The notes: generated from the sequence alone by a model not told the origin. A DNA stretch of 32,000 bases from Candidatus Saccharimonadota bacterium (GCF_003351905.1 NZ_CP022339.1:570001-602000); one strand, 5' to 3'; positions 195 through 31,735 are shown, numbered from the stretch's first letter. Program-made: numbers and translations.

Positions 195-314
195 TGTTTT
201 AAGTTTAAAGGTTACTTCTAGAGGAATAAAATCCAAATGAATTTAGACGAACTATGTTAATAAGCAAATTTTTTGTGATAAAAATATTTCGTTGTTAAGG
301 TTTATTTTGATTGA

Positions 315-362
315 GATGTGGATTTATGGATAACTTGATAAAGTTATCCATAAGTCCACATC
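315..362. repeat. 48-nt near-perfect palindrome (22-nt arms, 4-nt loop) with core TGGATAACTT/AAGTTATCCA
   Basis: GATGTGGATTTATGGATAACTT gata AAGTTATCCATAAGTCCACATC, with one arm mismatch. The arm is about 19/22 identical to an arm of the palindrome at 14583-14631. Confidence 0.85.
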
Positions 363-438
363 ATAACTGTTATATTTTTAATTTATATTCCTCATCAAAT
401 AATAAATTGTAAATTATTATCTTTCCTCTTTAGGCAGA

Positions 439-1225
439 CTAAGAGCTGACCTTTAGTTTAGATACATGGCCATCTACATAAAAAGTATTGTCGCGCATAA
501 TAGCAAATACTTGTCTAATAAGCTTGTTAGCTACTGCAATCAGTGCCACTTTACTAGGCTTACCCCTTTCTTTTAAGCGCTCATAAAATTCCTTACAGGC
601 CTTATTAAAGCGTATAGCTGACCAAGACGCCACATAGAGCAAAGGACGCAACCCAGGGTTTCCATGACGATTAATATGGCCTTTTTTTCTTACCGATGAG
701 CCTGAATGTTCATAAGTAGGCGCTAGCCCAATGTATTTAGAGAACTGCTTAGCACTTTCAAAATGGTGACCGCCACCAGTGGCAACGATAAGCTCCATAG
801 TCGTTCTATTGCCAAGACCTTTAATAGAACTGATCTGTTTATAGAGTTCTTTACAGCGTTCCTGTGTAATAGTAAGCATTTCTTGCTCTAAGAAGGCTAT
901 TGGTTCTTCTCAAGAAGATATATTTTGATTGATCATTTTTAAGGTTACAGCATCTGTTTTAGGCAACACATTAAAAAGACTCTAACAAATTATAAGACAT
1001 CGTCAGTTGTTTTTTCAACTGTGAAAGAAGTGTTTTTTGTTGCTTTAAGGCTTGGATACTTGCTACAGGCATTTGGTAGGATTTAGGTTCCATGTTAGCA
1101 CCATATAAAGCAATAAGTTGCGCATCTACCTTATCGGTTTTAGTTATATGATGCATTGCCTTAGCAAAGTGTTTGATTTGTCTTGGATTAACAACTGAAA
1201 CAGCTAGCTTAGCTGCTATAAGCAG
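439..1225 (-). pseudogene. IS110-family transposase relic (5'-truncated, frameshifted)
   Basis: ORF 971-1156 plus in-frame upstream codons read LIAAKLAVSVVNPRQIKHFAKAMHHITKTDKVDAQLIALYG, the IS110 N-domain motif. ORF 439-879 has the C-terminal block GLAPTYEHSGSS..KGHINRHGNPGLRPLLYVASWSAIR...GKPSKVALIAVANKLIRQ. The pieces are in different frames with stops at 880-970. The DEDD N-terminus (M..GIDV.K) is absent. Confidence 0.8.
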
Positions 1226-1233
1226 CTAAGCTA
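1205..1233. repeat. Perfect 13-bp-arm hairpin at the truncation point of the IS110 relic
   Basis: TAGCTTAGCTGCT ata AGCAGCTAAGCTA. One arm is the last recognisable IS110 coding sequence and the other is its inverted copy. Confidence 0.75.
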
Positions 1234-3840: not shown

Positions 3841-4150
3841 GTCCAATAAAAGTGTCTATGCACGGACATGGGTTCCTAAGGTATTTTTACTTTTTTCTTG
3901 ATAAGAAAGTAACCAAAAATCAAGTCCTCGGAAAAAAATCGCTAAGATTGTCATCTGACAGATGGAAAAACAGAAAGGCCCCCAAAGGGGGCTACTCTAT
4001 AAATATAACCTTTTTCCTTATCTAGTAGCATAGCAGGATTGAAAGTTTTCTAAAAATTGCTCCCATAGCTTGAGCATATCATGGGTCTGAGTGTATTGCA
4101 TGAAATATTTCATCATGCGAAACGGTTGCTTCTGCTTGATTGGATCATCT
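3841..4150 (-). repeat. Dispersed repeat copy A (decayed footprint of the SSS/HD-family C-terminal linker plus about 125-nt non-coding core)
   Basis: 3841-3964 aligns by eye at about 70-75% with 18549-18672. 4100-4150 (catcatgcgaaacggttgcttctgcttg) aligns with 18741-18770 and with the coding sequence at 15530-15590 of the 1200-aa gene. Confidence 0.6.
3966..3993 (-). terminator. Probable intrinsic terminator (reverse strand)
   Basis: The reverse strand reads GCCCCC ttt GGGGGC (6-bp GC stem) followed by CTTTCTGTTTTT. It lies downstream of the 4264-7632 gene. Confidence 0.5.
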
Positions 4151-9363: not shown

Positions 9364-10581
9364 GTGGCCGTGGTGCCCACTAATAGGGATCAATATAATA
9401 TTTATATGACAATGGTTTTTAGTATGTTTCGGTTCAGATATTTGTTTTTTATATGGTTGTCATTGGCTTCCTTTGCAGGTCTTCGTCGCAATCACCCTAC
9501 CAGTCAATCTCCCGGTAAGGTAAGCCAGACGACAGGGCGTCCTTTTAACCAGCCAGATACCCTTTCGGTAGTTCCTTGTAAGGCAAGGCCACCTATTCCA
9601 GGTATGGTCTATATTGAGGGAGGGTATATGATCATGGGTAACTTAGGTGAAGATAAACTGGGTACAGGGGGTTGTTGTGCCAAGCCTGTTACCGTTAATT
9701 CTTTTTGGATGGATGAAACACCTGTTACCAATTTGGCCTATAGAGAATACCTCTATGATTTGAAACAGCGTGGCTTGATGGAACAATATCAGGCTGCTAT
9801 GCCCAATCAGCAAGTTTTTATAGAGCACTTTAGCTACAATGACCCATTGGTAGACAATTATTTATATGCACCTGGTTTTATGTACTATCCTGTTGTGGGC
9901 GTCAGTTGGGAGCAAGCTATGAAATATTGTGCGTGGCGGACCGAGAAACTTCATGAGGCGATTAAGAAACGCAAAGGAAGTCCAGTTCCCGATCCTGATC
10001 CTGATGCGGGATCCTCGAATGGTGAAGATGAACCAAAGTTTATGGTTCGGTTGCCTACTGAAGTAGAATTTGAATATGCTGCGCGTGGTGTAGTGGGCGC
10101 ACCGGATATAAGCTATTTACAAAGTCATCAGCGCAACTACCCTTGGGATGGATCTTCTCCAAGAGGAAAAAATGGTCGGTTTTTAGCTAATTTTAAGCGC
10201 GGTAAAGGCAATTATAAGGGAATGGCTGGTGAATCTGACCATTCGGCACCAACTTCTAACGTCTATGCCTACCCTCCTAATGCAGTTGGTCTTCGCGATA
10301 TAATGGGTAATGTCTGTTGTTGGACACTTGATACCTATAGGCGCATACAAGATACAAGTGATTTAAATCCAGTTAGGCGTGATGGTTTTTTGGATCCTGC
10401 TGCGCACTATAGTGCAACCCATAAGGCTTCCCTGGTGAATGATGATGCAAAAGTCTATAAAGGCTGTTCTTGGGCAGACTGTGCCTATTTTTTACAAATA
10501 GGTACCCGCCGGTATTTGAATAAAGATTCGGCTACGGCTACCATTGGTTTCCGGTGTGTGGTTTCCAGCTTAGGGCAGTAA
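9364..10581 (+). CDS. FGE-sulfatase/SUMF1-fold protein, GldJ/GldK-like
   Basis: GMVYIEGGYMIMG, FWMDETPVTNLAYREY, YPVVGVSWEQAMKYCAWR, LPTEVEFEYAARG, GNVCCWT and FRCV are the spaced motifs of the formylglycine-generating-enzyme fold used by Bacteroidota GldJ/GldK. The track start is GTG. The ATG at 9406, followed by a hydrophobic leader, is a more likely start. Confidence 0.7.
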   Translation: MAVVPTNRDQYNIYMTMVFSMFRFRYLFFIWLSLASFAGLRRNHPTSQSPGKVSQTTGRPFNQPDTLSVVPCKARPPIPGMVYIEGGYMIMGNLGEDKLGTGGCCAKPVTVNSFWMDETPVTNLAYREYLYDLKQRGLMEQYQAAMPNQQVFIEHFSYNDPLVDNYLYAPGFMYYPVVGVSWEQAMKYCAWRTEKLHEAIKKRKGSPVPDPDPDAGSSNGEDEPKFMVRLPTEVEFEYAARGVVGAPDISYLQSHQRNYPWDGSSPRGKNGRFLANFKRGKGNYKGMAGESDHSAPTSNVYAYPPNAVGLRDIMGNVCCWTLDTYRRIQDTSDLNPVRRDGFLDPAAHYSATHKASLVNDDAKVYKGCSWADCAYFLQIGTRRYLNKDSATATIGFRCVVSSLGQ

Positions 10582-10603
10582 TAGATGCTGGGTCAGCCTA
10601 TTT

Positions 10604-11299
10604 TTAGGCTTCTACTACCGCTATGGTGGCAATGCTTACTTGGGCTACACCTGCCGCTAAAAGCGCATGGGTGCAAGCGGTCAAGGTCGCTCCTGTAGTG
10701 AGAATATCATCCACCAGCAGCAGGTGTTTGCCTGCTAGTAAACCTGCGTCTATAACTTTAAAGGCATCTTTAAGGTTGGCGATACGTTCTATTTTATTTT
10801 TGGTTGTTTGGGAGGGCGTATAACGGGTCCGTGCTATGCATGCTGTGTACAAAGGCATGTTTAGTGCAGCGGAGAGTCCTTTTGCAAAAAAATCACTCTG
10901 GTTATAGCCCCGTTCTTTGAGTCGTTTGGGGTGCAGTGGAACCGCTACAATTCCATCGATGGATGGCATCATCGGTGCCTGATGTAAGATCTGGCCATAG
11001 CGTTGCCCTAGCATCTGTCCGATTTTGGGTTGGTTTTTATACTTCATAGCAAAGAGTACTTGTTCAAGATGGCTCTTCTTTCTTAACTTGTAAAGCGAAA
11101 ATCCATAGGCTATGGTCACTTTACCTATAAAGTAGTTGGTAATAAGGTTGTCTACTAATGTATGCGCGTTGGTTTCTGGAAATGCACTCAAACAAATGGT
11201 ACAAACCCATGTTTCTCCCTGAATCAGTTTATGGTTGCATCCCACGCATAGGGGTGGAAAAAACAAATCCAATAGCCCAGCGATCAATCGTTTCATCAT
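10604..11299 (-). CDS. comF: ComF-family phosphoribosyltransferase-like protein
   Basis: N-terminal double CxxC (CVGC...CTIC), a central HP.RL.ERGYNQS motif, and the C-terminal PRT motif LLLVDDILTTGATL. Confidence 0.8.
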   Translation of the reverse strand: MMKRLIAGLLDLFFPPLCVGCNHKLIQGETWVCTICLSAFPETNAHTLVDNLITNYFIGKVTIAYGFSLYKLRKKSHLEQVLFAMKYKNQPKIGQMLGQRYGQILHQAPMMPSIDGIVAVPLHPKRLKERGYNQSDFFAKGLSAALNMPLYTACIARTRYTPSQTTKNKIERIANLKDAFKVIDAGLLAGKHLLLVDDILTTGATLTACTHALLAAGVAQVSIATIAVVEA

Positions 11300-11334: not shown

Positions 11335-11387
11335 GGCATCTGTTCCAATCACTGGTTTTTTGTCCACTTTTTTATCAAGAAAAAAGC
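11335..11387 (+). repeat. Dispersed repeat copy C, left part (interrupted by IS110)
   Basis: ggcatctgttccaatcactggttttttgtccacttttttatcaagaaaaaag matches the reverse strand of 18600-18722, with an internal deletion of about 65 nt. Homology stops exactly at 11387. Confidence 0.6.
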
Positions 11388-11397
11388 TATTATCTTA

Positions 11398-12098
11398 CTA
11401 TGCAAGTTTTTTAGTCATTTTGTACTCGTTTTTGATACTTTTGACGAAGCTTCTTTTTTGTTGTATAAGCTTATGCGCCAGCTCTAGGAGCTTCCTCATA
11501 CATGCTACGATAGCCACTTTTTTAGGCTTATATTTACCTACTAATCTATCATAGCATTCTTTTAAATATAGGAACCACTTTTTCCCTGCTAATACAGCCA
11601 TATACAGTGCATCTCGTGGTATTTTCCTTCCTCCCCTAATAAATCTTTTTCCCTGTTTTTTCCCACTATCAGCCGCATATGGTGCTATACCTACTAAAGC
11701 TGATAGTTGATTACTACTGTAGCTTCTATCACCTAATTCAGGTAAAAAACTGACTAATTTAGTGGCTAAACATTTCCCGATTCCTGGAATGGTTTCTAGT
11801 ATATTAGCCTTTTCGTCTAGATCCTTATCAGTAGTTATGGTTTTATTTAACGCTTTATCAATAATTTTTATTTCTTTTTCTAAAAAATCGATATGCCTTT
11901 CTATGCTTTCTTTATCTATATTAGTCTGGCTATGGTGTAACCGTTTCTTTTCATTGCTTAATGTAGCTACCAGCTCTTCTCTTCTTTGTTGTTGCCTTTT
12001 AAGCCGATCTGTTGTAATATAATAGCTGTAATTAGCTTTCAATCCCCTTTCCTGTCCATAGCGAGCTAGTTTAAAAGGTAGAGTAGAGCACTGGCGCG
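11398..12098 (-). CDS. IS110-family transposase, 3' exon (downstream of group II intron)
   Basis: The C-terminal block IPGIGKCLATKL...LVGIAPYAADSGKKQGKRFIRGGRKIPRDALYMAVLAG...KPKKVAIVACMRKLLE is Transposase_20-like. The frame stays open upstream of the track TTG start back to the intron 3' end (ARQCSTLPFKLARYGQERGLKANY). Confidence 0.75.
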
Positions 12099-12192
12099 GT
12101 GAAGTATAGGACCAGGTTTATCCGTGTCCATCGTTTCCGATTTCGTGCCTAAATAACCCAATCTCTCTTTCCCGTTTCCAGCACCCCCTCGT

Positions 12193-12226
12193 CGCACCGT
12201 ACGTGAGGTTTTCCCTCATACGGCGC
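12193..12226 (-). ncRNA. Group II intron domain V
   Basis: The reverse strand, GCGCCGUAUGAGGGAAAACCUCACGUACGGUGCG, folds as the canonical two-helix hairpin with an AC bulge and a GAAA-type loop. It matches the consensus ..GCCGUAU....GAAA....ACGUACGG... Confidence 0.85.
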
Positions 12227-12249
12227 ACGGATCGTCTTCTTCGTCTGCA

Positions 12250-13548
12250 TTACGTCCATCTGTATCGCACCCGATAAGCTCCTACATTGACTAATTTGTA
12301 CACTTTGTGGAGCTTCTCGTCGGGGAGTTCCTTATACCCGTTCTTCCTACTCCCTTTCTTTTTCATGATAAATCTTCTCAGACGCCTGTTTGCATGCCCT
12401 TGTACTTTCCTAAATCTCCTAGAACTGGCCGTGTGACGGTAATACTCCGTCCACCCCAGTAAGGATGCGTTTAAGTCTTTAACAATAGTTTCAACACTTT
12501 CGTGCAACCGGTTCCGATAGGTCAATTGCGTGACTTTCTTAATAATCCGCTTGATTGCATCAGGTGTAGGATACATATGGGTAACGGGTTTCTGATATCT
12601 TGGCGAGTATCCCCTTTTAAAGGCATACCCTAAGAAATTGAAACCTTCTTCGGCCGTGGTCATTCGACTCTTTTCTTCATTGATCGAAAGGCCCAAGCGT
12701 TGCAGATACCCACATAAAATACCCAAAATCTTCTCTACCGGTTTATTCGACACTATCACGAGATCGTCCGCATAGCGGACAATCTGTGCATTCCACCCAT
12801 TCCTTTCGGTCATCCGCTTGACCCATACTGTGTCTAGCAGATTCAGGTATATATTAGAAAGTAAGGGCGAAATGGGGGACCCTTGAGGGGATCCTTGTCG
12901 AGTAGCAACTTCTTCGCCTTTAAGGACTCCTGAGCGAAGCCAGGCTTGTATTAACTTTAGAACATACCTATCACTGATTCGCTTTTGAATGACTTTCATA
13001 AGCTTATCGTGTGGGATTGAGTCAAAGTATCGCTTCAAATCAATATCTAAAACTTGGGTGAGCCCGTAATTAAGCCATTTATATATTGATAGACTTGCAT
13101 GGACTGCGGATCGTTTAGGTCGAAACCCAAATGAGCATTCTTGGAAGTCTGCTTCAAAAATTGGCTCTATAACAAGACGGGTTGCAGTTTGTACTAAGCG
13201 GTCCTTAATCGTGGGCACTCCCAAGATTCTTATTCCTCCTTTCGGTTTGGGTATTTCCACGCGCTTTGTCTTATTGCTTCGGTAGCTTCCTGATTCCAGT
13301 TCTTTTTGAACTTGTCCAAGAAACGCTTCTTCCCCTTGTTCTTTGATTTGTTCTATTGTTATTCCATCTATGCCTGGTGCCCCGTGATTTGCACAAACCT
13401 GTTTCCATGAACAGACCAGTACGTCCAATCTATATATTTTGTCATGAAGGGTGTAGAAGCTGCGTTTAGGATTAGACTTAGCAGATCGATAAAGTTCTCG
13501 CTGCAGTTCTCGGACGCTTTGTGCCATGTGGTTACCTTGCGGAATCAT
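12250..13548 (-). CDS. Group II intron-encoded reverse transcriptase/maturase (no obvious En domain)
   Basis: APGIDGITIE (RT0/1), RRVEIPKPKGGIRILGVPTIKDRLVQ (RT2), FGFRPKRSAVHA (RT3), VLDIDLKRYFDSIPH (RT4), VRYADDLVIV (RT5 YADD), then FLGY and GW..YYR of the X/maturase domain. The ORF is 432 aa. Confidence 0.92.
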   Translation of the reverse strand: MIPQGNHMAQSVRELQRELYRSAKSNPKRSFYTLHDKIYRLDVLVCSWKQVCANHGAPGIDGITIEQIKEQGEEAFLGQVQKELESGSYRSNKTKRVEIPKPKGGIRILGVPTIKDRLVQTATRLVIEPIFEADFQECSFGFRPKRSAVHASLSIYKWLNYGLTQVLDIDLKRYFDSIPHDKLMKVIQKRISDRYVLKLIQAWLRSGVLKGEEVATRQGSPQGSPISPLLSNIYLNLLDTVWVKRMTERNGWNAQIVRYADDLVIVSNKPVEKILGILCGYLQRLGLSINEEKSRMTTAEEGFNFLGYAFKRGYSPRYQKPVTHMYPTPDAIKRIIKKVTQLTYRNRLHESVETIVKDLNASLLGWTEYYRHTASSRRFRKVQGHANRRLRRFIMKKKGSRKNGYKELPDEKLHKVYKLVNVGAYRVRYRWT

Positions 13549-14074
13549 GGTATCTTTCCCTGTTTTGAAAACATGACGAAACTGAAGATCCTTCGCTCCG
13601 GTAAGGTTTTGTTGTCCTTGCCATCTTCACTACTACTATCTTCCCGACTTCCTGCACAGCATCGGAACGAACTTCGACTTGCGCCTTATATCCTTCCTTA
13701 CTCTTGGAACTTAAAGACCGTGCAGGATCTCCCACGTTTCTCCTCCTTTCTTTCCTACGTGCCGCCCCTGCTACGCCGGGAGATAAGTGACGGTTATTGA
13801 CCTGTTATCTTTCCGTCACTTTACAGCTTTCGCCCACCAGACGAGAGGCTCAGCATCTCCAATTCCCAGATTTCTCTGGTAAGACCTTCACGGCGCTACA
13901 TATAGGTTCCTTGCGTACGGCCCGCAGTTTGCGTAGCTCCTTGTACAGAGCCGTCGTCGAGTGGCTTCATCTACAAAAATTACTCTTTATAGATGCACTC
14001 CTCGCTACCTGGCCAACAGGCCTATTGCCAGGGTGGGACTTGCACCCACTAGAAAGGAGGCCTTCGTGGCACGC

Positions 14075-14372
14075 CATCGTGTTTATCCGTTTTACAGTGG
14101 TCTAGAGATTTACTAAATGAACTAAAAGTATATGTATTCACTTGATGTATGTGTACATTAGCGGCATACAATTTCTCACAAATGGCTCTTTCATATCCCC
14201 CAGTTGGTTCACATACTATAATTTTAACAGCTACTTGATCTAAATAATCTATAAGTTCCTTATGGCCCTGCTCATCGTTACGAAACCTTTTATATACAGA
14301 TTTAGCCTCTTGACTATAGAAACATGCATCCAGCCATGTTTTCCCTATATCTAAACCAAGTATTCTGTTCAT
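14075..14372 (-). CDS. IS110-family transposase, 5' exon (upstream of group II intron)
   Basis: MNRILGLDIGKTWLD is the DEDD first-Asp motif (GLDIGK), followed by IVCEPTGGYE and CKTDKHD. The track ORF runs on to 14049 only because it reads into the intron. Confidence 0.75.
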
Positions 14373-14712
14373 TTTATATTATATTTATTTATATTTCCTT
14401 ATTCTTATCGTACAAGACAGTTGTAGGCAACTTCTTCTGCTATTTGTTCAAAGAAAATAAAGGTAAGCAGGTACTTAAGCTTTTTTCGACTATTAACTAT
14501 ATAAAGTCCAGTGGGATACAAGTAACCTGCTACCTTTAAAATACAATCTTTTTAAATCTTAACTACATCTAGAATCTTTCTTAAGCTGTGTTTTTGATGG
14601 ATAACTAAAGTTATCCACAAAACCACAGCTTACCTACTACTATTTTTTACTATAAATTGAATATGATTCAAGCTACATCTATAGCTATATCTATCTAGTG
14701 CTAAGATATAAG
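14373..14712 (-). ncRNA. Candidate IS110 bridge RNA region (non-coding left end)
   Basis: This is the 340-nt non-coding left end upstream of the recombinase. 14510-14521 (AGTGGGATACAA) is identical to the flank 14711-14722. 14478-14487 is the reverse complement of the other junction at 11380-11389. The two segments are 22 nt apart around a short stem. A strong palindrome lies at 14583-14631. Confidence 0.4.
14583..14631. repeat. Imperfect palindrome of about 48 nt, same family as 315-362
   Basis: AAGCTGTGTTTTTGATGGATAACT aa AGTTATCCACAAAACCACAGCTT. It shares the TGGATAACT/AGTTATCCA core with 315-362. Confidence 0.85.
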
Positions 14713-14760
14713 TGGGATACAACTCATTATTAATCAGTATCGTGAACAGATACGAGTGAG
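14713..14760 (+). repeat. Dispersed repeat copy C, right part
   Basis: tgggatacaactcattattaatcagtatcgtgaacagatac aligns with the reverse strand of copy B (taaaaataaaactgccttaccaaccagtgtcgtgaagagacac), including the conserved hairpin. Confidence 0.55.
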
Positions 14761-14888
14761 GGGGGGGGAGAGGTATTAGCGTTATCTTTGCCTGTTCCTA
14801 ATCTATCCTCTAACCCATTACAATTTAAAAATTGTCAGATTAGAGCTTGACTACTACAGCGGAGTCAGTTTAAGGCCTGGGTTTTTTG

Positions 14889-18548: not shown

Positions 18549-18787
18549 TCAAAATAAGTGTCTCTTCACGACACTGGTTGGTAAGGCAGTTTTATTTTTA
18601 CTTCATTCTTGATAAAAAAGTGGATAAAAAATGCAGCCCTCGGCAAAAGCCGCTGAAAGTATCATTTTACAGGGGCGTTGTTCTTTTAACGTAAAAAACC
18701 AGTGACTTGCACAGATACCATAACTTAATATGGAATAGCATCATAGCATCCGGTTGTTGCTTAGGGGTAACAGGGTAAGGTAAGCCA
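18549..18787 (-). pseudogene. Dispersed repeat copy B: relic of the deleted C-terminal part of the truncated SSS paralog
   Basis: The reverse strand reads YPVTPKQQPDAMMLFHIKLWY..., compared with TPVTPKEQADSMMALMQFHDY in the 1200-aa paralog. It then decays into the non-coding core shared with 3841-3964. Confidence 0.6.
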
Positions 18788-30976: not shown

Positions 30977-31735
30977 TTAAGCTTTTCCCAAGAAAAGCAT
31001 GACTAGGCTATGGGCAACAGAGTAGGGAACAATTTGCAAGATGCGCATGGTTAATCCATTAAAGATGGCAAGAAACTTCTTTTCTACTGTAATGTTATGT
31101 TTAAGTCGTCCTATCCAAGTCATAGGCACCTCTGAGCCACAATTTTGTGTGGCGATTAGATCAAATGGCATCGTTAAGGCAGATACAGCGATACCCAATA
31201 CCGTACTAACCATCATATTAATCCACACCCCACTGATATCCTTTGTAAATTCATATGCCAATATAGAAGCGGAGCCACTCAGTATATTCCTTAAAAAGAT
31301 CGGCGTTACAATATCACTCATCCTTTCTTTTCGTTTCATTAAAGCCCCTTTATTAGCAGCAATTTCTTTTGTTTCGCTATATATGGTTACGGCTGTTTCT
31401 ACCATTCCTGCTAAGAAGCACTCCCAGATAACCAGTAACGCAAAATTGCTTATCGCATAATAATCAGTAGAACAAAGGAAAAGCCACTGAGAAACTCCAA
31501 AGGCCAAAGCCGCTATAAACTGTCGAAGTGCATAAATATGTGCGCCGGAAAAAAATAATTTAAAATTTTTAGTACGTATGCACCTGGTCACAATAGAGGC
31601 ATAAGATTCGCCGGTTTCTTGGTAGACTACTTTTACAAACTGAGCAGGTGCCACTAAGTAGGCTACGACCATACAAGCGATACCATGTGCAAGTGGATCA
31701 AAAAAAAAGCGGTATAGCAGTGTGTTGTATTCCAT
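30977..31735 (-). CDS. Short 6-TM protein with mitochondrial-carrier-family-like tripartite motifs
   Basis: The ORF is 252 aa with six hydrophobic helices in three pairs. After the odd helices come PAQFVKVVYQ (aa 30), YSETKEIAAN (aa 119) and PFDLIATQ (aa 190), resembling the P.[DE]..[KR]...Q carrier signature. Each is followed by F.G....LRQ/LR-like segments (LFFSGAHIYALRQ, IFNGLTMRILQIVPY). Confidence 0.45.
   Translation of the reverse strand: MEYNTLLYRFFFDPLAHGIACMVVAYLVAPAQFVKVVYQETGESYASIVTRCIRTKNFKLFFSGAHIYALRQFIAALAFGVSQWLFLCSTDYYAISNFALLVIWECFLAGMVETAVTIYSETKEIAANKGALMKRKERMSDIVTPIFLRNILSGSASILAYEFTKDISGVWINMMVSTVLGIAVSALTMPFDLIATQNCGSEVPMTWIGRLKHNITVEKKFLAIFNGLTMRILQIVPYSVAHSLVMLFLGKA

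What the first reader, a model, noticed from the sequence alone, without database searches (positions are those of the whole stretch)
14478..14521. Guide-like segments in the IS110 left end match both flanks of the insertion site (bridge RNA target-binding loop candidate)
Within the 340-nt non-coding left end, 14510-14521 (AGTGGGATACAA) is identical to the chromosomal flank that abuts the element (14711-14722). Twenty-two nt away, 14478-14487 (AGCTTTTTTC) is the exact reverse complement of the opposite junction, 11380-11389 (GAAAAAAGCT). The intervening 22 nt can form only a short 4-bp stem (GACT...AGTC). An RNA transcribed in the recombinase direction would carry one segment in sense and one in antisense to the target. 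That is the geometry described in 2024 for the left and right target guides of IS110/IS621 bridge RNAs. The 12-mer match is unlikely by chance in 340 nt. The 10-mer is A-rich and therefore weaker evidence.
Basis: partly seen in the sequence, partly recalled or inferred. Interest (0 to 1): 0.7.

Follow-up and report, generated by a model that had tools for sequence, protein, structure and literature searches.

The report
Bridge RNA target loop of IS110
The two short matches are real and form the target-reading loop of a bridge RNA, the guide RNA an IS110-family mobile element uses to pick its insertion site; this is a correct call of a mechanism described in 2024, not a new kind of system.

Summary
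Observation confirmed; interpretation supported. The window comes from Cardinium endosymbiont of Sogatella furcifera. It holds an IS110-family element on the minus strand (11387-14710), and a group II intron splits its recombinase gene.

In the RNA sense, the 338-nt left end folds into two stem-loops with large internal loops.
- **Loop 1 (14531->14466):** 5' side UAUCCCA-CU, identical to the left flank plus the CT core. After a small hairpin, the 3' side is GAAAAA-AG-CU, complementary to the right flank TTTTTC, the core, and the last two bases of the element's right end (the "handshake" position).
- **Loop 2 (14453->14397):** matches the element's own ends.

Supporting tests:
- 12 related elements keep the scaffold (18 of 23 base pairs show compensatory changes).
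- The loop sequences change with each element's own flanks; 0 of 100,000 permutations reach the observed match on either side.
- A covariance model built without the window sequence hits 14391-14539 at E = 6e-22.
- The recombinase aligns end to end with IS621 and keeps all five catalytic residues.

- The right junction is 11379-11388.
- Three bases of the 12-mer lie in the conserved stem.
- Two bases of the 10-mer belong to the element.

Not tested: transcription and activity. New member of a known kind.

The parts
11387..14710 (-). IS110-family element, including the intron. The left end starts TATATCTTAGCAC (14710 downward). The right end finishes ...AAGATAATAG (11396->11387).
   Evidence: Pfam PF01548 and PF02371. 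The end sequences are shared with relatives: TATATCTTA... and AAGATAAT[AT]G|CT. Coordinates.
14711..14722 (-). Left target plus core, in element orientation TTG-TATCCCA-CT. The core CT is 14712->14711.
   Evidence: Identical to the 5' side of loop 1.
11379..11386 (-). Second copy of the core (CT, 11386->11385) and the right target TTTTTC (11384->11379).
   Evidence: Complementary to the 3' side of loop 1.
14373..14710 (-). Non-coding left end (338 nt) that encodes the bridge RNA.
   Evidence: fold z = -4.8.
14466..14531 (-). Target-binding loop module: stem, guide, hairpin, guide, stem.
   Evidence: RNAalifold and pair counts: helix 1 has 12 pairs, 9 of them with compensatory changes. CM hit.
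14510..14518 (-). Left target guide UAUCCCA plus core CU. It has the same sequence as the top strand of the left target, so it pairs with the bottom strand.
14519..14531 (-). 5' strand of the loop-1 stem (AGCAGGUUACUUG).
   Evidence: Columns 9-21 pair with 66-77, and U19, U20, G21 are invariant.
14488..14509 (-). Small hairpin between the two guides, the counterpart of the IS621 TBL stem loop.
   Evidence: Relatives keep a 3-4 bp hairpin here with changed pairs: GACU/AGUC, GAUU/AAUC, GAUC/GAUC, GAA/UUC.
14480..14487 (-). Right target guide GAAAAA plus the core-binding AG. It pairs with the top strand CT-TTTTTC.
14478..14479 (-). Handshake-guide position (CU). It is complementary to the last two bases of the right end (AG, donor positions 6-7).
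   Evidence: Position and rule from PMC11208158. The IS621 copy in E. coli shows the same junction-spanning match.
14466..14477 (-). 3' strand of the loop-1 stem (UAAGUACCUGCU).
14397..14453 (-). Donor-binding loop module.
   Evidence: Helices 2 and 3 have 11 pairs, 9 with compensatory changes. The sequence is highly conserved.
14438..14445 (-). Left donor guide AAAUAG-CA, matching the right end ..ATAATAG|CT.
   Evidence: It covaries with the right end: AAAUAG/AATAG (this clade), AAAUUG/AATTG (Rickettsia type), AAGUUG/AGTTG (L009).
14398..14409 (-). Right donor guide GAUAAGA-AUA-AG. AUAAG pairs with CT-TAT and UAAGA with TCTTA of the left-end start, skipping one base.
   Evidence: Read from the sequence. 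Discontiguous RDG pairing is described for IS621 (PMC11208160).
14583..14631 (-). Conserved 49-nt hairpin upstream of loop 1, built from two inverted DnaA-box-like 9-mers. Its role is unknown.
   Evidence: Compensatory changes in close relatives. A second, solo copy lies at about 305-365.
14075..14372 (-). Recombinase exon 1 (DEDD/RuvC-like domain, residues 1-99).
12078..14074 (-). Group II intron with an RT/maturase ORF (13548..12250). It interrupts the recombinase gene.
   Evidence: Rfam RF02003 and RF00029. Pfam RVT_1 and GIIM. Boundaries taken from uninterrupted homologs.
11398..12077 (-). Recombinase exon 2 (Tnp domain with the catalytic Ser237).

Best explanation
14478-14521 is the guide-bearing internal loop (target-binding loop) of a bridge RNA encoded in the left end of an IS110-family element.

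**Layout of loop 1, read on the minus strand:** stem, UAUCCCA-CU, small hairpin, GAAAAA-AG-CU, stem.
- The 5' segment has the sequence of the left half of the insertion site plus the CT core. It would therefore pair with the bottom strand.
- The 3' segment is complementary to the core plus the right half (CT-TTTTTC). It would pair with the top strand.
- Its last two bases (CU) pair with the terminal AG of the element's right end. This is the handshake position, which in IS621 accepts the incoming donor strand after the first strand exchange.

**Loop 2 (14453->14397)** reads the element's own joined ends in the same way (..AATAG-CT-TATATCTTA..).

**Recombinase.** It has a DEDD domain and a serine Tnp domain and needs the intron spliced out. 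Inferred from IS621: a tetramer bound to the RNA would bring the circularised element and the site TATCCCA-CT-TTTTTC together and exchange strands at CT.

**Shown here:** anatomy, conserved structure, guide/flank covariation, and recombinase homology with catalytic residues.

**Inferred by analogy with IS621:** transcription, RNA-protein complex formation and the recombination chemistry.
For: - **Exact matches** at the stated places, anchored at both element boundaries. The anchored 12-nt match appeared in 0 of 20,000 shuffles.
- **Fold.** The MFE fold puts both segments in one internal loop (z = -4.8).
- **Conserved structure in 12 related elements (46-74% protein identity).** 98.5% of cells are paired against 41-51% when partners are slid by 1-3 columns. 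18 of 23 pairs show compensatory changes against 2-9 when slid. No shuffle out of 500 reached the observed values.
- **Guides track flanks.**

| Element | Left guide / left flank | Right guide / right flank |
|---|---|---|
| window | UAUCCCA / TATCCCA | GAAAAA / TTTTTC |
| L089 | AGCGCAA / TTCGCAA | - |
| L001 | UGGGGUA / TAGGGTA | GAGCAU / ATGCTT |
| L092 | CUGUCAA / TAGTCAA | GUAACC / GGTGAC |
| L088 | - | GCAAAA / TTTTGC |
| L009 | - | UAAUUU / AAATTG |

- **Own versus cross pairing.** The mean longest shared substring is 6.2 vs 3.1 on the left and 6.6 vs 3.8 on the right. 0 of 100,000 permutations reached the observed sum on either side.
- **Donor guide covaries** with the right-end sequence in three lineages.
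- **Covariance model** built without the window hits 14391-14539 (-) at 124 bits, E = 6e-22.
- **Recombinase.** PF01548 and PF02371. It aligns over 304 residues with IS621 (8WT6, E = 8e-28) and ISCro4 (9T56). It keeps D8, E55, D96, D99 and S237, matching IS621 D11, E60, D102, D105 and S241.
- **Reference case.** An IS621 copy from E. coli shows the same layout, including a 9-nt match of the 3' loop segment across the right-end junction: UGCGU-AG-AU against AT-CT-ACGCA.
- **Published rules** are in PMC11208160 and PMC11208158.
- **Sister element.** With constant guides, it sits at the same position of at least 3 copies of one repeat.
Against: - There is no transcript evidence, and no promoter stands out. 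The sigma-70-like sites found (5) are no more than chance gives (7.3 expected). Bacteroidota promoters are not covered by that scan.
- A group II intron splits this copy's recombinase gene, and only one copy is seen. Current activity is therefore doubtful.
- No empty site was recovered. The region upstream of comF in two other Cardinium genomes is not alignable and has different neighbours.
- Rfam 15 gives no match.
- My model from relatives does not reach the IS621 RNA or the Chloroflexota loci. Kinship with IS621 at the RNA level therefore rests on architecture and logic, not on detectable sequence homology.
- The right guide is A-rich and weak by itself (3% of shuffles).
- The handshake match is seen in this element and L088 (CU) and in L004 (CA against right-end TG), but not in the other close relatives (AA, AU, AG).
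- The handshake position of the donor loop (GA) does not match target positions 6-7 (CA).
- Several Rickettsia/Tisiphia copies match on only one side.
Confidence: 0.9

Rival explanations
1. Chance. In an AT-rich 338-nt left end, short matches to nearby flanks arise without function.
For: The A-rich 10-mer alone is matched or beaten in about 3% of shuffles. Three bases of the 12-mer lie in an invariant stem, so they are not free to match.
Against: The anchored 12-mer (or even its 9-nt guide part together with the 8-nt right match) occurs in 0-3 of 20,000 shuffles. The same two positions match the flanks in relatives that have different sequences: 0 of 100,000 permutations reach the observed value.
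Confidence: 0.01
2. Duplication of flank into the element. The 12-mer would be a remnant of a nested or tandem insertion or a target-site duplication, like the partial left-end duplication seen at the guide DNA of an E. coli IS621 copy.
For: In L098, IS621 left-end DNA is found inserted right after its own guide sequence (CCGTATCGGGCCT|TGTATTATCCC). Guide DNA can therefore become a junction. The window's left end also contains a degenerate second copy of the left-end start near 14563.
Against: The match is exactly 12 nt with no extension. The bases after it (GGACUUUAU..) are the conserved hairpin, not a left-end start. The segment occupies the same scaffold position in all relatives.
Confidence: 0.02
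3. The structure is a conserved 5' UTR or DNA-level recombinase-binding site. It would regulate translation or act as subterminal repeats, and the loop/flank similarity would not be used for guiding.
For: The element's ncRNA ends about 20 nt before the ATG. No transcript or activity data exist. Some relatives' copies match on only one side.
Against: A pure UTR or binding site would not have hypervariable loop segments that track each element's own two flanks and own ends, with sense on one side and antisense on the other. The homologous recombinases IS621 and ISCro4 were solved as bridge RNA complexes (PMC11208158).
Confidence: 0.05
4. It is a genuine bridge RNA gene, but a dead one. The copy would be a fossil: intron-disrupted, single copy, with guides frozen at the last insertion.
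For: The group II intron sits inside the catalytic D..D motif. One copy is seen. In Cardinium cOegib all nine copies of an IS110 element were reported as not intact (PMC9769881).
Against: Both exons are open, and the spliced product keeps every invariant residue of the family. The intron is on the coding strand with an intact maturase ORF, so splicing could restore the mRNA. Guides match both flanks with zero mismatches, and the stems are intact.
Confidence: 0.35

Closest known systems
IS621 bridge RNA / bridge recombinase (IS110 subgroup; Durrant et al. 2024, PMC11208160; Hiraizumi et al. 2024, PMC11208158; PDB 8WT6)
   Same: - Long non-coding left end and short right end.
- CT core at both junctions.
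- Two stem-loops with internal loops, target loop first and donor loop second.
- The 5' loop side equals left half plus core (7+2). After a small hairpin, the 3' loop side is complementary to core plus right half, followed by a 2-nt handshake position.
- The left donor guide reads CA rather than CU at the core in both.
- The right donor guide pairs discontiguously.
- The recombinase has the same two domains and the same five catalytic residues.
   Different: - Only 27% protein identity.
- The RNA is not detectably homologous by my covariance model.
- The right guide is 6 nt rather than 5.
- The left end is 338 nt, with an extra conserved 49-nt hairpin and about 150 nt not present in IS621 or in the Rickettsia-type relatives.
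- The target is a Cardinium intergenic repeat rather than an E. coli REP.
- A group II intron interrupts the recombinase gene.
IS110 elements of Rickettsia, Tisiphia and Caedimonas endosymbionts (NCBI name for P0013: 'IS110 family RNA-guided transposase')
   Same: - 46-67% protein identity.
- The RNA scaffold is alignable base by base: ACUUG-N7-CU-hairpin-G-N5-AG-NN-UAAGUACC, and the donor loop UUUGAACAAAUUGCAGAAG...AAUAAGAUGAAGG.
- The same left-end start (TATATCTTA) and right end (AAGATAATTG|CT).
   Different: - Their left end is about 190 nt without the hairpin module.
- The guides and targets differ.
- The right end has TTG where the Cardinium clade has TAG, with the matching change in the donor guide.
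IS1111 subgroup / seekRNA (ncRNA downstream of the recombinase)
   Same: The same recombinase superfamily and the same RNA-guided logic.
   Different: There the ncRNA lies in a long right end and the left end is short. Here the right end is 10 nt after the stop codon (11397->11388 region) and the RNA is upstream.
ISCca12 (IS110 family) of Cardinium cOegib (PMC9769881)
   Same: An IS110-family element in the same genus.
   Different: Only a table entry was read (9 copies, none intact). No sequence was compared, so its relation to this element is unknown.

Membership tests
IS110-family bridge recombinase system (IS110 subgroup, IS621-like) | Recombinase with an N-terminal DEDD RuvC-like domain and a C-terminal Tnp domain carrying a catalytic serine | tested here: met
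   PF01548 and PF02371. Aligns with IS621 8WT6 at E = 8e-28 and with ISCro4 9T56. D8, E55, D96, D99 and S237 are invariant in 27 homologs and align with IS621 D11, E60, D102, D105 and S241. The ORF requires removal of the intron.
IS110-family bridge recombinase system (IS110 subgroup, IS621-like) | Long non-coding left end upstream of the recombinase, short right end, and the same core dinucleotide at both junctions | tested here: met
   Left end of 338 nt; right end ends 10 nt after the stop codon; CT at 14712-11 and 11386-85.
IS110-family bridge RNA | Left-end RNA with two stem-loops, each holding a large internal loop and an inner hairpin, supported by covariation | tested here: met
   RNAalifold on 12 sequences. 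18 of 23 pairs have compensatory changes, and 98.5% of cells are paired against 41-51% in the slid controls. A CM built from relatives hits the window at E = 6e-22.
IS110-family bridge RNA | Loop 1: 5' side identical to left target plus core (pairs with the bottom strand); 3' side complementary to core plus right target (pairs with the top strand) | tested here: met
   9/9 and 8/8 matches here. Own-versus-cross permutation across 10 elements gives 0 of 100,000 on each side.
IS110-family bridge RNA | Loop 2: guides matching the joined right-end/left-end donor | tested here: met
   Left donor guide AAUAG equals the last five bases of the right end and covaries in three lineages (AATAG, AATTG, AGTTG). 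The right donor guide AUAAG/UAAGA pairs with CT-TAT / TCTTA. The left-end start is nearly invariant, so right-donor-guide covariation could not be assessed.
IS110-family bridge RNA | Handshake guides: the 2 nt after each right guide pair with positions 6-7 of the non-cognate DNA and not with the cognate DNA | tested here: inconclusive
   The target-loop position CU pairs with donor AG and not with target CA, so it is met here and in L088. L004's CA likewise pairs with its right-end TG. Other close relatives have AA, AU or AG. The donor-loop position GA pairs with neither target CA nor donor AG.
IS110-family bridge RNA | Match to a curated or published covariance model | tested here: inconclusive
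   No Rfam 15 family matches, even at E <= 10. The published Durrant et al. models were not available. My own model does not reach the IS621 RNA.
IS110-family bridge RNA | The RNA is transcribed (in IS621 from a promoter formed at the circle junction) and binds the recombinase | not testable with these tools
   Only a sigma-70-like pair in the right end pointing outward (ATGACT-18-GATAAT, 11418->11389), which is not above chance.
IS110-family bridge RNA | Reprogrammable RNA-guided recombination between donor and target | not testable with these tools
   Needs an experiment.
IS1111 subgroup (seekRNA in the right end) | Short left end, long right end carrying the ncRNA | tested here: not met
   The right end is about 10 nt and the ncRNA is in the left end.

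The most novel reading that the evidence does not exclude
The Cardinium-type clade has added a module to the bridge RNA gene. The module is a conserved 49-nt hairpin made of two inverted DnaA-box-like 9-mers (TGTGGATAA / TTATCCAYC), within about 150 extra nt at the 5' end of the left end.

- It is kept, with compensatory changes, in all five close relatives.
- A solo copy lies beside a second, unrelated IS110-family remnant in the same window (about 305-365).

It could be a host-factor (DnaA-like) binding site or a 5' RNA domain that ties bridge RNA expression or transposition to the host replication state. Together with the group II intron inside the recombinase gene, this would make recombinase supply depend on splicing, giving a bridge system with two extra layers of control.
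Probability: 0.12. Interest if true: 0.55.

Novelty: new member of a known kind. Interest (0 to 1): 0.3.

Why it matters
- **For the scan.** The target-reading loop of a bridge RNA can be recognised from raw sequence by its sense/antisense matches to the two insertion junctions, including the two-base overhang into the element (the handshake position).
- **For biology.** This is a well-resolved natural bridge RNA in an AT-rich insect endosymbiont of a different phylum from the studied cases. Its guides match the target perfectly. It has a 6-nt right guide and a defined donor (AAGATAATAG-CT-TATATCTTAG).
- **For evolution.** Its close kin in Rickettsia, Tisiphia and Caedimonas point to exchange among intracellular symbionts.
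- **Limits.** It adds a compact, sequence-diverse orthologue to the catalogue. It does not change the picture of how these systems work.

Tried and rejected
- **Rfam 15.** Scanning at gathering thresholds found only the two group II intron domains. A permissive scan of 14300-14800 gave only sub-threshold hits, all far below their gathering scores (psm_mec, miRNA precursors and similar).
- **First genome-contig scan.** Run with the single protein, it found nothing. The source genome appears not to be in that collection, so I could not count copies in the host genome or look for empty sites there.
- **Empty-site search through the neighbouring comF gene.** Orthologues were found in other Cardinium. 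Their upstream regions are not alignable with either flank, and a peptidase M16 gene is the neighbour instead of the symporter-HD gene. This gave no information on the pre-insertion site.
- **Reach of the covariance model.** It recovers relatives down to about 50% protein identity, but not IS621 or the Chloroflexota loci.
- **Fuzzy search of the window** for the predicted target TTGTATCCCACTTTTTTCTTGAT, allowing up to 6 substitutions. The only hits were the occupied junction and an unrelated site at 31697.
- **Alignment of the left-end extension with 250-445.** I mis-set the coordinates for three relatives. Only the hairpin similarity between the two window copies is usable.
- **Nested-insertion idea** for the degenerate second left-end start near 14563. 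I considered it and left it unresolved.

Full report
**1. What is in the sequence**

The window comes from Cardinium endosymbiont of Sogatella furcifera. The C-terminal ORF is 100% identical to a protein of that genome.

An IS110-family element lies on the minus strand.
- An N-terminal DEDD_Tnp_IS110 ORF (14372..14049) and a C-terminal Transposase_20 ORF (12042..11398) are present.
- They are separated by a group II intron. Rfam RF02003 matches 14051-13911 and RF00029 matches 12228-12078. An RT/maturase ORF lies at 13548..12250.
- Joining 14372-14075 to 12077-11398 gives a 325-aa protein reading ...KTDKHD|AFKLARYG....
- This is the family consensus. It is also the exact DNA of uninterrupted homologs: GATG|CTTTTAAACTAGC.

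**2. The observation**

- Both matches exist. AGTGGGATACAA occurs at 14510-14521 and 14711-14722, with no extension on either side and no other copy in the window.
- AGCTTTTTTC at 14478-14487 is the reverse complement of 11379-11388.
- In 20,000 dinucleotide-preserving shuffles of the left end, a sense match anchored at the boundary never exceeded 9 nt. A core-spanning antisense match of at least 10 nt appeared in about 3%. The 12-mer is far beyond chance.

**3. Anatomy in the direction of the recombinase gene**

- Left junction: ...GAGTTGTATCCCA-CT|TATATCTTAGCAC...
- Right junction: ...TAG TAAGATAATAG|CT-TTTTTCTTGATAAAAAAG...
- CT flanks both ends.

RNAfold of the 340 nt gives -85.4 kcal/mol against -62.2 ± 4.8 for shuffles (z = -4.8). 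It yields three elements:
- a long hairpin (14631-14583);
- a stem-loop at 14531-14466 whose internal loop carries both matches, separated by a small hairpin;
- a third stem-loop at 14453-14397 with another internal loop.

Written out, loop 1 is: stem AGCAGGUUACUUG, UAUCCCA-CU, GGACUUUAUAUAGUUAAUAGUC, GAAAAA-AG-CU, stem UAAGUACCUGCU.

**4. The published rule**

For IS621 (PMC11208160):
- the 5' side of each internal loop pairs with the bottom strand over 8-9 nt, so it has the top-strand sequence of the left half plus core;
- the 3' side pairs with the top strand over 4-7 nt;
- the core is included in all four pairings.

The two bases after the right target guide are the handshake guide (PMC11208158). 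They pair with positions 6-7 of the donor, which are the last two bases of the right end, once strands are exchanged.

I recovered a real IS621 copy from E. coli to check this on sequence.
- Its guide AUCGGGC-CU faces the flank ATCAGGC-CT.
- Its 3' loop segment UGCGU-AG-AU is the reverse complement of the right junction AT-CT-ACGCA, a 9-nt match that runs two bases into the element.

The window shows the same pattern.
- UAUCCCA-CU equals the flank.
- GAAAAA-AG-CU is the reverse complement of AG-CT-TTTTTC.

**5. Relatives**

A protein search found thousands of homologs.
- The nearest full-length ones (72-74% identity) are on short metagenome contigs.
- The next (about 65%) are in Rickettsia and Tisiphia endosymbionts. 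One of them is already named "IS110 family RNA-guided transposase".

I fetched loci from genome contigs and by exact protein look-up. Alignment of the regions upstream of the start codons shows a scaffold conserved base by base:
- stem-ACUUG-[7 variable]-CU-hairpin-G-[5 variable]-AG-[2 variable]-UAAGUACC-stem;
- then UUUGAACAAAU[U/A]GCAGAAG-hairpin-CUUGYACRAUAAGA..AAGG.

RNAalifold predicts two stem-loops, and 18 of 23 pairs have compensatory changes. Counting on that structure:
- 98.5% of cells are paired, against 41-51% when partners are slid by 1-3 columns;
- 18 pairs show double changes, against 2-9 when slid;
- none of 500 shuffles reach the observed values.

**6. Guides covary with flanks**

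Each element's variable loop segments resemble its own junctions.

Left side, flank / guide:
- window TATCCCA / UAUCCCA
- L089 TTCGCAA / AGCGCAA
- L001 TAGGGTA / UGGGGUA
- L092 TAGTCAA / CUGUCAA
- L096 CTAGGCT / AUAGGUU
- L081 TAACTTA / GGCCUUA

Right side, flank / guide:
- window TTTTTC / GAAAAA
- L088 TTTTGC / GCAAAA
- L001 ATGCTT / GAGCAU
- L009 AAATTG / UAAUUU
- L092 GGTGAC / GUAACC
- L004 TTTTGC / GUAAAA

Ten elements were scored per side, by the longest substring shared between guide and flank. Own pairs average 6.2 (left) and 6.6 (right), against 3.1 and 3.8 for cross pairs. None of 100,000 permutations reached the observed sum on either side.

Agreement is best next to the core and decays outward. 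Some Rickettsia/Tisiphia copies match on one side only (L002, L005, L006). This could reflect later recombination between copies or half-site events.

A sister element with constant guides (protein P0003) sits at the same position in at least three different copies of one repeated motif.

**7. Donor loop**

- The 5' side of loop 2 reads AAAUAG-CA in the Cardinium-type clade, whose right end is ..ATAATAG|CT.
- It reads AAAUUG-CA where the right end is ..ATAATTG|CT.
- It reads AAGUUG in L009, where the right end is ..ATAGTTG|CT.
- That is three states, all concordant.
- The 3' side (GAUAAGA-AUA-AG) can pair with CT-TAT and TCTTA of the left-end start with one base skipped. IS621 also pairs discontiguously here.
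- IS621's left donor guide also reads CA at the core.

**8. An independent model**

A covariance model built from eleven relatives, without the window sequence, finds 14391-14539 on the minus strand. The hit is full length, 124 bits, E = 6e-22, and nothing else in the window is significant. The model also recovers held-out relatives but not IS621 or Chloroflexota loci. The link to IS621 at the RNA level is therefore architectural.

**9. The recombinase**

- 27% identity to IS621 over 317 residues.
- The best solved relatives are IS621 (8WT6) and ISCro4 (9T56).
- D8, E55, D96, D99 and S237 are invariant in the family alignment. They align with IS621's D11, E60, D102, D105 and S241.

**10. Corrections to the finding**

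- The right junction is at 11379-11388.
- The UUG at the start of the 12-mer (14519-21) is part of the invariant stem (C18-G21 pair with U66-G69). The guide is therefore 7+2 nt, and the extra three matches are probably fortuitous.
- Two bases of the 10-mer belong to the element, not to the target.
- The "short 4-bp stem" is the conserved inner hairpin of the loop.

**11. What is not shown**

- No transcript, promoter or activity data exist. The sigma-70 scan is uninformative: 5 sites against 7.3 expected, and Bacteroidota promoters are not covered.
- The intron must be spliced out for the recombinase to be made, and only one copy is seen. The element may be a fossil, although both exons, all stems and both guides are intact.
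- I could not recover an empty site.

**12. Verdict**

This is a new member of the known IS110 bridge RNA kind. Its modest extras are an added conserved hairpin in the left end, an intron in the recombinase gene, and a target inside a Cardinium intergenic repeat.

Noticed in passing
window 12078-14074 (-): A group II intron of about 2 kb with an intact RT/maturase ORF is inserted in the IS110 recombinase gene. It lies between the codons for D99 and A100, inside the catalytic D..D motif, and on the coding strand, so splicing could restore the ORF. Its inferred 5' end reads GCGUGCC rather than the usual GUGYG.
   Followed up: partly
window 14583-14631 (-); also L081, L087, L088, L089: A 49-nt hairpin made of two inverted DnaA-box-like 9-mers (TGTGGATAA / TTATCCATC) lies within about 150 nt of extra left-end sequence. 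It is conserved with compensatory changes in the five Cardinium-type elements and absent from Rickettsia-type relatives. Its function is unknown.
   Followed up: partly
window ~305-365 (-): A second copy of the same hairpin (GATGTGGACTTATGGATAACTTTATCAAGTTATCCATAAATCCACATC). It stands alone between the 3' end of another IS110-family remnant and the start of an IS256-like transposase gene.
   Followed up: partly
window ~439-1230 (-): A second, different IS110-family remnant. ORF 439..879 has PF02371 and is 28% identical to the main element. Upstream, out-of-frame sequence encodes ..VVNPRQIKHFAKAMHHITKTDKVDAQLIALYG... No bridge-RNA-like hit lies next to it.
   Followed up: partly
window ~3860-3935 (+), ~18560-18720 (+), and both flanks of the IS (11335-11386, 14713-14760): The IS sits in the middle of a repeated, partly palindromic intergenic motif (..GTTCACGAYACTG..TTTTTA-CT-TTTTTCTTGATAAAAAAGTGGAYAAAAAA..CCAGTGA..). 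Two unoccupied copies in the window share the right half but not the left-half 7-mer. The sister element in metagenomes targets the same motif.
   Followed up: partly
window 11389-11418 (-): A sigma-70-like promoter sits at the very end of the element and points outward (-35 ATGACT, 18 nt, -10 GATAAT). It would read into the left end in a circular form and into comF in the integrated form. It is not above chance in the scan.
   Followed up: no
window ~14540-14567 (-): A degenerate second copy of the left-end start (GTAGTTAAGATTTAAAAAGATTGTAT) aligns with the true left-end start of Rickettsia-type relatives (GTACTTATATCTTAAAAAAGTGTTAT). This suggests that the 150-nt extension was added 5' of an older end.
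   Followed up: no
L098 1560-1680 (E. coli NZ_CP063349.1): An IS621 copy has a partial left end duplicated exactly after its own guide-encoding DNA (..CCGTATCGGGCCT|TGTATTATCCC..). This looks like an insertion of the element into its own left target guide sequence.
   Followed up: no
L004 (contig DATGXQ010000202.1, labelled Nostocaceae MAG): A related element has a 4-nt deletion at its left junction, and its right-end terminus (AACATAATTG|CT) is displaced about 215 nt from the stop codon. The inserted stretch contains the Cardinium-type repeat motif, so the contig is probably from an Amoebophilaceae-like symbiont rather than a cyanobacterium.
   Followed up: no
(P0012-P0026, L001-L011): The closest genome-borne relatives of this Bacteroidota element are in alphaproteobacterial endosymbionts (Rickettsia, Tisiphia, Caedimonas). 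This suggests transfer between symbionts that share hosts.
   Followed up: no
window 14763-14773: A homopolymer run (C9 on the minus strand, G on the plus strand) lies in the left flank, about 50 nt from the insertion site.
   Followed up: no
window 9364-11299 vs L099/L100: Synteny upstream of comF differs from other Cardinium. There a divergent peptidase M16 gene is the neighbour. Here the IS and the 3' end of a 1200-aa symporter-HD fusion gene are. A rearrangement at or near the IS is possible.
   Followed up: no
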